The position numbers were made by a program. Shown one piece after another: positions 3,001-6,000 of a DNA stretch of 64,000 nucleotides (within the stretch, counting starts at the first letter, position 1; every line of letters begins with the position of its first letter). The stretch lies in the NCBI GenBank assembly GCA_964106645.2, contig OZ067050.1, one strand, 5' to 3'. This DNA is from Podarcis pityusensis. Taxonomy: Eukaryota.

Positions 3001-6000
3001 AGCCGCTCCGACGGCTCGGCTCGGCTCTCCCGCCTGCCTGGAGACAGGCAGAGAGCGAGAGGAGGGGGGCAGCAACCAGCAGCAGCTGCGGCTCTTCTGC
3101 TGCAGGGAGGCGGCGGCGGCGGAGATTGGCTGCTGCTAGCGCGGCCTCGGAAGAGCAGATGGAAGGGGAGGGAGGGAGCGCAGAAGAGGCACCCGCAGAT
3201 CCCACCCCCTCGCCCGGCCTGCCTCTCCTCCACCCCGCCCCGCAGGCCCGCCTCTCTTCCCCACCCACGCTGGGCCAGGGATCCTTGGGCTTGATTCGAA
3301 GCCGATCCCGCCCGCCCGCTTCCTTCTCGGCCAAACGAATCGTTTCTTTTGCCTTCCCTGCAACCAGAATCCCGGGGATCTCTTCCTCCTCCCAATCAGG
3401 TCTCTCGGCTTTCGTTTCTATCCCCTCCCCCTGTCGCTTCCCTTATATAACACTTCCTGCCCTCGCTCTTGAGGACTAGCGTGCCAGTTGCCCTTAAAAA
3501 ACAAAACAAAATACGGATTCTCTACTCACTTAATGCCCATATCCCTAATTCTCTTCTCCTGTACACTCAACAAAGTAACCCCCTTCTCTTCATTCTCCTG
3601 TTCCCCATTTTTAACCACTATTGCCTTTTGCTCTTGCCCTTCCTCATAGCTGTCTGTGTAGGCTACCTCGTTTTTATCCTTGCATCAACTCTGTGAGGAA
3701 AGTTACACTGAGGGGGAGGGGGAAAGTTACTAACTGGCCCATTGACTTAGAAATGACCACACACACACACCCCAAAAAAAATCAAGGTGAGAAAGTGGAA
3801 CTCCTGGAAGGATCAACTGGGCTGCACTAGAAAATTTTGCAGAACAGGATTCCAACCCCAGCTTGTCCTGTTTTACATATTTTTAAAAGAAATTGCTAAC
3901 TGGCCCAAGATCACTCGACTTTTATGGCAGAGTAGATAATCAAACTTAAGCATCCTCGGTCCAAGTCAACACTCCAAACTCAAGACTACCCTGGCTGTAA
4001 TCCCACCCCGCCCCCAAAAATCCCCCTCCTGTGATTTATTCCACTATCAAACATTTTGCATTCCCCTTTTATGTGACATAGATCCCACTTTGGGGCCTCC
4101 CATGCCTAGTGCTGTTGGAGGCCTTTTCTGTTTAGAGGATCCCGCTGAGACCTACTTCAGCTGTGCAGATTCCCCACCCCCAACTTTTAGCACACTTAGC
4201 CCCATTTGTGAAATGGATTCCTTTCTAAATCCAGATTTATACGCCAATTAGAGCCGGATTTAGGTTTGGTGAGGCCCTAAGCTACTAAGGTAATGGGGCC
4301 CTTTATATGTCCAGCTGCCCTTTGTCAACAAATGGTTGCTGTTTTTGTTGTTGAATAAATGCTATTTGGTAATTTATGGACCTAATTGGTATCTAAAGCC
4401 CTTTGCACATAACAAAATATGTATTTATCAAGGTAATTGTTGAACTGAAATACAATTAATAGGTTTTTTCTTTAATTTTTTGGGGGGGCAAGAGAGTGGG
4501 GCCCTAAGCTATATCTTATACATAAATCCAGCACTGACGCCAATGAATAGATGTGCTGTTACAATCCTGTAGGCCAAGGGGTAGACAGATGTTGCTGGAG
4601 GACCGTTCTTATCTCTTGCCGTTGGCCATGATAAGATTCAGGGCCCAACTTTTCTCTAGGGAAAGAGAATTCCAGAAATGTTCCTGTGGCCGTCTTTGGA
4701 CATCCGCTGTTTCCTCTGCCTACGGGAAACCTTGCCCTCCATCCACCAGAGAAGATAATCCTGTTACTGTTCACATAATCACTTACCCAAGGGTGAAAGG
4801 AAAATGTGTTGAGACCTTGATTTTATCAAAACTCCTTTCTTTTTTTAAAAAAACTCACTTGAACTTGCAGGTTCAAGTTCATGAGTTGTTATTCTGTGTG
4901 CAAACAAGCCCCCAGTTTTTGGAGGGGACGTGCTGGTGCTGTTAAGATGGGCAGTAGCGGGAAAGCAGAGGCTGTAACTCCCATTCGTTCCTGCTTTCAG
5001 TGTGAAAAGTGATTGACGCCATCGTGAAGGGGGGCGAGAGGGAGCTGGAAGGGGCAGACCCAGGAGGTGTCACCCTAGGGTCCGAGAGGTGGAGGATGAA
5101 CGGAGAAGCGGATAGCCCAACTGACTTAGAAATGACGGCCCCCAAAAACCAAGGTGAGAAGGTGGGAACTCCTGGGAGGGTCAAGTGGGCTGCGCCAGAA
5201 AAATTTGCAGAACAGGATTCCAGCCACAGCTTGATCTAGTCTGCATATTTCTTAAAAAAGAAATGGATTGCCAGACAAAGTAAATCCTTTATAGAAGTCT
5301 CATGAATTAGCTTACTGAATTTCTAGCCAGATGGGAATGCAGGAAGGAGTTTTCCTTTTTCAGCCAACTTGGTGCAAAGCTGTCCATCTCTCTGCCACCC
5401 TAGTGCCCTGATGGCAGTTTCTGGTTGTCTGTGGCTACCAAGCTAAGTGCTTAAATAAAAGAATACTTTATTACTTCGTTCATGCGTTCCTAGTCTCTTC
5501 TTGAGAATATGCAGGGCCTCCTCCCCACCCCCCACTCTAATCATATGATTTAGAATATATTGAGGATTTTTCTTGGTTGTGGACAAAAGGTTGATTAAAC
5601 ATGAAATTTCCTGACCCTTGGGGTTCATGTTTGCAAGTGTTGCTGTTGAACTCTTTATGGGCAAAGCTAAGACTTGCATGCTGGGATTTGTAGTCCATGG
5701 GTACTGTTTTGCTATGAACATGAAACCCTGTTGGCTACTGCTTTGCTGTTATTTTATATATGCTTCTAAATCCTCAGCAAGATACTAAGAAGAGTCTGTC
5801 TAAGGCTTGGTGAGGTGGAGGTAGCCTCTCTGTGCATCATTATATAAGCATCCTTATACTCCTGTGAATTTTGATACAACCCAGATTTGAAAAAGAGCAA
5901 TTAGATTCTTGCATAAAAAATGGTAAATAGTCTAATTAGGGAGATAAAATGTCGCTTTCTTTAGGATCCTTGAAAAGAGCTGTACATTGCAATAAGCACG

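What the first reader, a model, noticed from the sequence alone, without database searches (positions are those of the whole stretch)
3737..3895. Duplicate of UBTF's first coding exon in intron 1 keeps an ATG and a same-phase splice donor
Seen: 3737-3895 is a diverged copy (roughly 80% identical by eye) of 5115-5266, covering the 3' half of exon 2, its donor and ~110 nt of intron. Despite an (AC)n/A-run expansion, ATG 3753 stays in frame to CAAG|GTGAGA (3786/3787), phase 1 like the real exon. Splicing to exon 3 would give MTTHTHPKKNQ-DRWTQ..., a UBF with a replaced N-terminus. Splicing to exon 2 would add an upstream AUG instead. A TATA-like cttatataa and an ETS-like cacttcctg lie at ~3442-3459. 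Inference: this could be a lineage-specific alternative first exon born by local duplication. It could equally be a dead copy, since frame retention has about a 1 in 3 chance by luck.
Basis: partly seen in the sequence, partly recalled or inferred. Interest (0 to 1): 0.7.

Follow-up and report, generated by a model that had tools for sequence, protein, structure and literature searches.

The report
Decayed partial-exon copy in UBTF intron
A 157-base stretch in the first intron of a wall-lizard UBTF gene is an old, decaying copy of the end of the first coding exon plus the start of the next intron, most likely a harmless by-product of DNA copying or repair and not a working new exon.

Summary
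Window 3737-3893 is a diverged direct copy of 5115-5264, which is the last 39 nt of UBTF's first coding exon, its donor and 111 nt of intron. The local alignment scores 143, against at most 28 in 500 shuffles. There are 126 matches, 19 mismatches and 17 gap columns, and no third copy in the window. ATG 3753 is in phase 1 to an intact AAG|GTGAGA donor, but it matches internal Met13, not the initiator at 5096. New here: a 12-nt exact direct repeat brackets the copy (0 of 5000 shuffles), and both junctions show 4-6 nt of microhomology. That is the mark of a one-off templated insertion. Nothing favours function. The copied exon part has changed at least as fast as the copied intron part. Neutral simulations keep ATG, frame and donor in 12-33% of runs. 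The copy lies outside the CpG island and has lost both source CpGs. None of 19 lacertid UBF protein records has the predicted N-terminus. Transcript data and orthologous introns could not be reached, so use as an exon is unsupported, not excluded. Ordinary; low interest.

The parts
3737..3893 (+). Diverged copy of the 3' end of UBTF's first coding exon, its donor and 111 nt of intron (the finding)
   Evidence: Local alignment score 143 against a maximum of 28 in 500 shuffles. 126 matches, 19 mismatches, 17 gap columns. blastn E 2.9e-29 and the only non-self hit in the window.
5115..5264 (+). Source segment: last 39 nt of the first coding exon (5115-5153) plus the first 111 nt of the following intron
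   Evidence: The exon identity comes from a tblastn HSP at 5096-5152 that is 100% identical to P0002 residues 1-19.
3730..3741 (+). Upstream arm of the flanking direct repeat CTAACTGGCCCA (extends to 3724-3741 at 16 of 18). Its last 5 nt, GCCCA, are also the first 5 nt of the homology with the source (5115-5119).
   Evidence: 12-nt exact word shared by the two borders. 0 of 5000 shuffles reached 12 (maximum 10), and 1 of 1722 window pairs at the same spacing did. blastn 3724-3741 against 3890-3907 gives 88.9%.
3896..3907 (+). Downstream arm of the flanking direct repeat (extends to 3890-3907)
3753..3786 (+). Potential coding part of the copy: an ATG, 10 more codons and 1 nt (phase 1). The ATG is homologous to the Met13 codon of UBF.
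   Evidence: Translation, alignment. The nearest in-frame stop upstream is at 3612-3614 and there is no in-frame ATG in between.
3784..3792 (+). Retained splice-donor 9-mer AAG|GTGAGA, identical to the real donor at 5151-5159
   Evidence: 6 matches to MAGGTRAGA in the window against 2.9 expected, and these two are among them.
3648..3649 (+). Candidate acceptor AG in the old intron sequence upstream of the copy. Together with the copied donor it would define a 137-nt cassette (3650-3786). This is sequence potential only.
   Evidence: 85% pyrimidine in the 20 nt upstream, the same as the real acceptor at 4999-5000. No transcript evidence.
3442..3459 (+).
   Evidence: Read. TATAWAW occurs 80 times in the window, so the word alone says little. 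An ATG at 3533 opening a 38-codon ORF lies between it and ATG 3753.
1..3500 (.). CpG island (CpG observed/expected 0.63-1.06) that presumably holds the UBTF promoter(s) and non-coding first exon(s). The copy lies about 240 nt beyond its 3' edge.
   Evidence: CpG profile, GC profile. That exon 1 lies here is inference.
5001..5153 (+).
6220..6395 (+). Next UBTF coding exon (phase 1 at its start), the proposed splice partner
   Evidence: Translation, 100% identical to P. raffonei UBF X1. tblastn.

Best explanation
The segment is a non-functional, slowly decaying relic of a single small templated insertion. About 150 nt spanning the exon/intron boundary of UBTF's first coding exon were copied once, in the same orientation, into a site 1.37 kb upstream in intron 1.

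The most likely route is replication or repair template switching of the MMBIR/FoSTeS type. The nascent strand left the intron at ...GGCCCA and re-annealed on the GCCCA(A) of the exon. It copied through to the A-rich ...AAGAAAT in the next intron. It then returned, through a GAAA microhomology, to a point 16-18 nt upstream of where it had left, which duplicated that stretch as the flanking repeat.

A LINE reverse transcriptase copying a piece of nascent, unspliced UBTF pre-mRNA is the second possibility.

Since then the copy has drifted. An (AC)n/A-run expansion added 12 nt, both CpGs were lost, and about 13% of aligned bases changed. The in-frame ATG and the donor are survivors of chance, not of selection.

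Shown: the duplication, its borders, the flanking repeat, the microhomologies, the divergence pattern and the lack of matching annotated proteins. Inferred: the mechanism, the age and the lack of function.
For: (1) The duplication is real and there are only two copies in 64 kb. The flanks 3300-5000 have no other copy in the window either.

(2) A 12-nt exact direct repeat (16 of 18 when extended) sits exactly at the two borders of the homology. 0 of 5000 shuffles reached 12, and 1 of 1722 equally spaced window pairs did (blastn).

(3) GCCCA is shared by the target (3737-3741) and the source (5115-5119) at the 5' junction. GAAA is shared by the target (3722-3725) and the source (5260-5263) at the 3' junction (read). 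Templated insertions from MMBIR-type switching typically show 2-12 bp of junction microhomology and can return to the original template (passages of PMC8421209).

(4) There is no sign of constraint. The exon part has 4 of 38 mismatches and 3 indel events in 39 nt. The intron part has 15 of 107 mismatches and 3 indel events in 111 nt. Fisher p is 0.78 and 0.18. At half the intronic pairwise rate, 2.7 exon-part mismatches are expected and 4 are observed.

(5) In neutral simulation from the source sequence, 12-33% of runs keep a stop-free in-frame ATG plus a near-intact donor (4 parameter sets, 40,000 runs each).

(6) The copy lies in CpG-poor DNA (observed/expected 0.16-0.20) beyond the island (0.63-1.06). 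It has 0 CpGs where the source has 2 (alignment).

(7) Of 19 lacertid UBF protein records (P. raffonei X1-X3, seven P. lilfordi, P. muralis X2, Lacerta agilis X2, eight Zootoca), 17 start MNGEAD, 2 start at Met27 and 0 start with the copy's peptide. 0 of 239 proteins held contain THTH or MTTH. The P. lilfordi set was built from Illumina RNA-seq plus PacBio Iso-Seq (passages of PMC10214862).

(8) No Rfam family is matched in 1-8000.
Against: - The donor 9-mer is perfectly intact and as close to consensus as the real one.
- ATG 3753 is the first in-frame ATG after a stop at 3612-3614.
- A plausible acceptor (AG 3648-3649, 85% pyrimidine) lies upstream, so a 137-nt cassette exon is possible on sequence grounds.
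- Two transcript-based P. lilfordi isoforms (P0223, P0224) start at Met27 in the next exon. P0224 equals the 724-aa form minus exactly 26 residues. So UBTF mRNAs that lack the normal start exon exist in the genus, and I could not see their 5' exons.
- Mouse Ubtf uses alternative first exons 1a-1d (passages of PMC5898269).
- No RNA-seq, CAGE or orthologous intron was available, so non-function is inferred from weak statistics on 157 nt.
- The protein survey would miss a non-coding or low-abundance exon. It covered only clusters I opened, and only 120 of 307 hits and 120 of 968 hits were listed.
- Mechanism: without an orthologous empty site, template switching and RNA-mediated copying cannot be told apart.
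Confidence: 0.75

Rival explanations
1. Occasional cryptic or non-coding exon. The copied strong donor, paired with the older acceptor at 3648-3649 or with a nearby transcription start, is sometimes used. The result is minor UBTF mRNAs that carry a 12-codon upstream ORF (if joined to 5001), or a changed N-terminus (if joined to 6220), without having been selected for.
For: Intact consensus-like donor. Candidate acceptor with 85% pyrimidine. The junction to 5001 gives a stop at 5003-5005. P. raffonei X1 is listed under four protein accessions, which fits several mRNAs that differ outside the coding region. P. lilfordi isoforms start at Met27. Mouse Ubtf has several first exons.
Against: No transcript evidence was seen. 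No annotated protein has the peptide. If the P. lilfordi Met27 isoforms used an intact homologue of this exon joined to the next exon, the ORF caller would be expected to start at the upstream in-frame ATG, and it did not (inference). No conservation signal.
Confidence: 0.15
2. Selected, lineage-specific alternative first coding exon. Transcription starts near the TATA/ETS-like words at 3442-3459, translation starts at ATG 3753, and splicing 3786 to 6220 gives a UBF whose first 19 residues are replaced by 11 others.
For: The ATG, a stop-free frame, phase 1 and the donor are all present. A purine sits at -3 of the ATG. The TATA-like word is the only TATAWAW in the first 4.2 kb.
Against: The ATG is the Met13 homologue kept by descent, and the peptide after it is a microsatellite product. 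The joint survival of these features is expected in 12-33% of neutral runs. An upstream ATG at 3533 opens a 38-codon ORF in any transcript that starts near 3475. The region is CpG-poor. TATAWAW is common, with 80 in the window. 0 of 19 lacertid UBF records have such an N-terminus. The exon part is not more conserved than the intron part.
Confidence: 0.05
3. Both segments are members of a dispersed repeat (a transposable element or a fragment captured by one), not a source and its copy.
For: A flanking direct repeat like a target-site duplication. No genome-wide repeat library or lizard genome could be searched, so copy number outside the window is unknown.
Against: The 'source' includes coding sequence for residues 7-19 of UBF, and 28 of the squamate and turtle records among the proteins held carry that N-terminus identically. 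It is therefore ancestral gene sequence. There are only two copies in 64 kb, and the flanks are not repeated.
Confidence: 0.03
4. Assembly artefact (a mis-joined haplotype or a collapsed duplicate).
For: None specific.
Against: 13% substitutions, 6 indel events, a microsatellite expansion and distinct flanks are far beyond haplotype differences. The window has no N.
Confidence: 0.01

Closest known systems
Microhomology-mediated templated insertions (MMBIR/FoSTeS-type template switching)
   Same: [quoted passage not shown] Such events are reported to accumulate as harmless germline variants (passages of PMC8421209).
   Different: At about 150 nt, with a template 1.37 kb away, it is at the larger and more distant end. 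The yeast events in that paper copied from within 100 bp. The event is ancient and the junctions have since mutated. No empty-site orthologue was available to confirm it.
LINE-mediated retrocopies and RNA-templated insertions flanked by target-site duplications
   Same: A 12-18 nt flanking direct repeat, an A-rich 3' end, and microhomology at the 5' junction, as in 5'-truncated LINE insertions (features recalled from the literature). The papers listed were seen only as a search listing.
   Different: The copy contains intron, so the template would have been unspliced pre-mRNA. There is no untemplated poly(A). The inferred nick site (GG/AAAG on the top strand) is not the TT/AAAA preference recalled for L1 endonuclease.
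Alternative first exons of Ubtf in mouse
   Same: Same gene. Several first exons (1a-1d) with germ-layer-specific use are reported (passages of PMC5898269).
   Different: As far as the passages read go, those are promoter and first-exon variants. Nothing there concerns an exon born from a copy of the coding exon, and no transcript evidence exists for the lizard segment.
Exon duplication giving alternative or mutually exclusive exons (recalled: Kondrashov and Koonin 2001; Letunic et al. 2002; not read here)
   Same: An exon-derived sequence duplicated within the same gene, in the same orientation and phase.
   Different: Those cases duplicate a whole exon with both splice sites. Here the acceptor, the 5' 114 nt of the exon and the initiator ATG were not copied.
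Intronic pseudo-exons and decoy splice sites
   Same: A strong donor with a potential upstream acceptor lying unused in an intron.
   Different: Here the donor has a traceable origin as a copy of the neighbouring real donor.

Membership tests
Functional alternative first or cassette exon | Usable splice donor | tested here: met
   AAG|GTGAGA at 3784-3792 is identical to the real donor at 5151-5159 and matches MAG|GTRAGT at 8 of 9 positions.
Functional alternative first or cassette exon | Open reading frame in phase with the downstream exon | tested here: met
   11 codons plus 1 nt gives phase 1, as in the real exon. This is expected by chance in 12-33% of neutral runs when taken together with the donor.
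Functional alternative first or cassette exon | Transcription start or acceptor, and junction reads | not testable with these tools
   No lizard RNA-seq, Iso-Seq or CAGE collection is reachable. Only sequence potential was seen: an acceptor-like AG at 3648-3649 and a TATA-like word at 3444.
Functional alternative first or cassette exon | Annotated protein or mRNA isoform containing it | tested here: not met
   0 of 19 lacertid UBF records start with the copy's peptide, and 0 of 239 proteins held contain THTH or MTTH. This is a weak test, because non-coding or rare isoforms would be missed.
Functional alternative first or cassette exon | Exon part conserved above the neutral rate | tested here: not met
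   Within-genome proxy only: 4 of 38 against 15 of 107 mismatches (p 0.78), and more indel events per nt in the exon part. The cross-species test was not possible.
MMBIR/FoSTeS templated insertion | Microhomology at both junctions | tested here: met
   GCCCA (3737-3741 and 5115-5119) and GAAA (3722-3725 and 5260-5263), read.
MMBIR/FoSTeS templated insertion | Template nearby, and return to the original template | tested here: met
   The source is 1.37 kb downstream on the same strand. The flanking 12-18 nt duplication fits a return upstream of the point of departure.
MMBIR/FoSTeS templated insertion | Empty site in a relative, showing a single clean insertion | not testable with these tools
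   No collection of lizard genomes is on hand.
LINE-mediated retrocopy | Target-site duplication | tested here: met
   12 nt exact, 16 of 18 when extended. 0 of 5000 shuffles reached 12.
LINE-mediated retrocopy | Untemplated poly(A) tail at the 3' end | tested here: not met
   The A-rich 3' end aligns to the source's own A-rich intron sequence, with no extra A run.
LINE-mediated retrocopy | Endonuclease-type target (TT/AAAA; the preference is recalled) | tested here: not met
   The repeat starts ...GGGGG/AAAGTT. Other reptile LINE families may differ.
Tandem exon duplication (mutually exclusive exons) | Whole exon copied with acceptor and donor | tested here: not met
   Only the last 39 of 153 exon nt and the donor are copied. 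There is no homology upstream of 5115.

The most novel reading that the evidence does not exclude
In wall lizards the copied donor has been recruited. An exon ending at 3786 is spliced to the second coding exon and translated from ATG 3753. That gives a UBF isoform whose first 19 residues, at the start of the N-terminal region recalled to mediate dimerisation, are replaced by an 11-residue peptide partly made by a microsatellite. Alternatively it is spliced to 5001 and acts as a 12-codon upstream ORF that tunes UBF translation. The transcript-based P. lilfordi isoforms that start at Met27 would then be traces of the same alternative 5' structure.
Probability: 0.06. Interest if true: 0.45.

Novelty: new member of a known kind. 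Interest (0 to 1): 0.2.

Why it matters
As it stands it matters little. It is a tidy example of a small templated insertion that happened to carry a splice donor and an ATG into an intron. It also shows that 'frame kept, donor kept' is weak evidence of function for a 34-nt reading frame.

Its modest value is as a datable marker. With 0.155 substitutions per site between the two intron parts, it should be tens of millions of years old. That estimate uses recalled squamate neutral rates of about 1-2 x 10^-9 per site per year, so it is inference. The copy should therefore be shared by many lacertids.

If the donor were in fact used, it would be a documented birth of a 5' exon of an essential RNA polymerase I factor from a partial exon copy.

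Tried and rejected
- **Repeat family in the window.** blastn of the copy, of the source and of the whole 3300-5000 stretch against the window found no third copy and no repeated flanks. Tandem Repeats Finder on 3300-5400 returned 0 rows.
- **Structured RNA.** The Rfam gathering scan of 1-8000 gave 0 matches.
- **Other genes on either strand.** Only two ATG ORFs of at least 70 aa overlap 3300-5300 (3159-3479 and 4589-4945, both on the + strand). I ran no search on either and did not pursue them.
- **Pfam on the exon peptide.** Only a sub-threshold Myb-like hit (18.7 bits against a cut-off of 22.9). On the whole P. raffonei protein no domain covers residues 1-19.
- **Solved structures.** There were 0 matches for residues 21-78, so the structural cost of replacing the N-terminus could not be judged.
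- **Species assignment.** A per-residue tblastn comparison with five lacertid proteins was confounded by HSPs running into introns and by the acidic tail, and was dropped. I say only that the window is Podarcis-like.
- **Joined model not built.** I did not build or search the spliced model of the copy's peptide plus the downstream exons. Exons were translated and searched singly, and the 11-residue peptide was only looked for as short words in proteins already held.
- **Not reachable.** The phage, plasmid and E. coli collections are irrelevant here. The supplements of PMC10214862 (tissue list, annotation files) were not opened.
- **Literature.** 'UBTF' plus 'alternative first exon' found 4 papers (3 listed). 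None of the 3 listed titles and abstracts concerns reptiles or an exon copy. I know of no printed description of this segment, but that rests on this one search.
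Full report
**Setting**

The window carries UBTF (nucleolar transcription factor 1, UBF) on the + strand. tblastn with the 761-aa Podarcis raffonei isoform X1 (P0002) places coding exons from 5096 to about 36834. The first coding exon runs 5001-5153, with acceptor AG at 4999-5000, ATG at 5096 and donor GT at 5154. 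The next exon runs 6220-6395. The peptides of both exons are identical to P. raffonei X1, so the window is from a Podarcis-like lacertid.

The first 3.5 kb of the window is a CpG island, with CpG observed/expected 0.63-1.06. From about 3500 the ratio falls to 0.16-0.4. I infer that the non-coding first exon(s) lie in the island, which puts the finding in intron 1.

**The observation**

It is correct.

- 3737-3893 aligns with 5115-5264 at a score of 143. In 500 dinucleotide-preserving shuffles the mean was 18.3 ± 2.4 and the maximum 28.
- blastn against the whole window finds this pair at E 2.9e-29 and nothing else better than E 0.04.
- The alignment has 126 matches, 19 mismatches (13 of them transitions) and 17 gap columns in 6 events. 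That is 86.9% identity without gaps and 77.8% with gaps.
- The copied stretch is the last 39 nt of the exon, the donor and 111 nt of intron.
- From ATG 3753 there are 11 stop-free codons plus one base before GT 3787, so phase 1, as in the real exon.
- The donor 9-mer AAG|GTGAGA is identical in both.
- Joined to 5001, the frame would read G+TG and then TGA at 5003-5005, giving a 12-codon upstream ORF.

I read the pieces separately.

Two corrections apply. The copy covers a quarter of the exon (39 of 153 nt), not half. ATG 3753 is the counterpart of the internal Met13 codon, because the true initiator at 5096 is outside the copied stretch.

The copy is bracketed by a direct repeat. CTAACTGGCCCA occurs at 3730-3741 and again at 3896-3907, and extends to 16 of 18 over 3724-3741 and 3890-3907.

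- No shuffle of the two 40-nt border windows reached 12 nt (0 of 5000, maximum 10). Only 1 of 1722 equally spaced window pairs across the 64 kb did.
- The last five bases of the upstream repeat (GCCCA) are also the first five of the homology with the source (5115-5119).
- At the other end, GAAA is shared by the source (5260-5263) and the target just before the repeat (3722-3725).

So this was a single insertion of about 150 nt into an intron site of the form ...repeat|AGATC.... It came with a 12-18 nt duplication of the target and 4-6 nt of microhomology at each junction. It is not a remnant of a larger tandem duplication: nothing else in 3300-5000 matches elsewhere in the window.

**Origin**

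Two mechanisms fit.

I favour replication or repair template switching. The template lies 1.37 kb away on the same strand. Both junctions have microhomology. [quoted passage not shown] The alternative is a LINE reverse transcriptase priming on the A-rich ...AAAAAAGAAA of nascent unspliced UBTF RNA. It explains the flanking duplication and the A-rich end. However, there is no untemplated poly(A), and the target does not look like the recalled L1 nick site.

Without an empty site in a relative this stays open. My rough split is 50% template switch, 30% RNA-mediated and 20% other.

**Function**

Nothing I could test points to function.

1. *Constraint.* The source exon encodes a peptide that is invariant in squamates, so differences in the exon part fall mostly on the copy. 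There are 4 mismatches in 38 aligned bases and 3 indel events in 39 nt. The intron part has 15 in 107 and 3 in 111 nt, shared between two free branches. The exon part is therefore no better kept: Fisher p 0.78 and 0.18, and 2.7 mismatches expected at the one-branch rate against 4 observed. After Met-Thr, the 'new' peptide is largely the product of an (AC)n/A-run expansion.
2. *Chance.* I evolved the source fragment neutrally at the observed rates. A stop-free in-frame ATG plus a near-intact donor survived in 12-33% of runs (4 parameter sets, 40,000 runs each).
3. *Chromatin proxy.* The copy lies about 240 nt beyond the island in CpG-poor DNA. It has lost both CpGs of the source.
4. *Promoter words.* The TATA-like and ETS-like words exist at 3442-3459. 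But TATAWAW occurs 80 times in the window. A transcript starting just after them would also carry an ATG at 3533 with a 38-codon ORF ahead of ATG 3753.
5. *Annotation.* I opened the clusters that hold lacertid UBF proteins. Of 19 records, 17 begin MNGEAD, 2 begin at Met27 and none begins with the copy's peptide. None of the 239 proteins held contains THTH or MTTH.

Limits of the annotation survey: only 120 of 307 hits and 120 of 968 hits were listed. Only coding isoforms can appear. Rare isoforms are often not annotated.

**Points that keep exon use alive**

- The donor is as good as the real one.
- An acceptor-like AG with an 85% pyrimidine tract sits at 3648-3649 in the older intron sequence. 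A 137-nt cassette (3650-3786) with ATG 3753 as its only ATG is therefore possible.
- The in-frame stretch is open back to a stop at 3612-3614.
- P. raffonei X1 is listed under four protein accessions, which suggests mRNAs that differ in the 5' UTR.
- Two P. lilfordi isoforms begin at Met27 of the next exon, and one is exactly the 724-aa form minus 26 residues. They come from an annotation built on RNA-seq and Iso-Seq (passages of PMC10214862). So mRNAs without the normal start exon exist in the genus, and I could not see what their 5' exons are.
- Mouse Ubtf uses several first exons (passages of PMC5898269).

**Verdict**

This is a real, ancient and most probably inert templated partial-exon copy (confidence 0.75). 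Occasional unselected use as a cryptic exon gets 0.15. A selected new first coding exon gets 0.05. A dispersed repeat gets 0.03 and an assembly artefact 0.01.

It is a new member of a known kind, a small microhomology-flanked templated insertion or intronic pseudo-exon, and of low interest. The decisive data are junction reads and orthologous introns from lacertids, and neither was reachable here.

Noticed in passing
P0223 and P0224 (Podarcis lilfordi UBF records CAI5790391.1 and CAI5790390.1); corresponds to window 6220-6395: Two transcript-based P. lilfordi UBF isoforms start at Met27 inside the second coding exon. P0224 is the 724-aa isoform minus exactly its first 26 residues. mRNAs that skip or replace the normal start exon therefore seem to exist in the genus, and their 5' exons are unknown to me.
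   Followed up: partly
window 5003-5095: The 5' UTR part of the first coding exon is open in the frame of the ATG for 30 codons after a TGA at 5003-5005. Its last 20 codons match, at 18 of 20, the residues that a Crotalus adamanteus record (P0019) carries ahead of MNGAAD. The leader is therefore conserved between lizard and snake. Whether that reflects a UTR element or a non-AUG extension is open.
   Followed up: no
window 1-3500: A CpG island of at least 3.5 kb that runs off the start of the window. It holds the only donor-like sites with at least 8 of 9 consensus matches upstream of the copy (CAG|GTAGGT at 502-510). Weaker ones seen by eye lie near 860 and 2115. These are candidates for alternative non-coding first exons of UBTF.
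   Followed up: no
window 4268-4290 and 4497-4516: By eye, a 12-nt word (GGCCCTAAGCTA) recurs about 230 nt apart inside an AT-rich stretch of intron 1. It may mark the ends of a small mobile element. It was not picked up by the repeat tool at the settings used.
   Followed up: no
window 9186-9227 and 56745-56770: (AC)n microsatellites. They account for the weak extra blastn hits of the copy's AC run.
   Followed up: yes
window 37000-64000: The part of the window downstream of the last UBTF HSP (36760-36834) was not examined.
   Followed up: no
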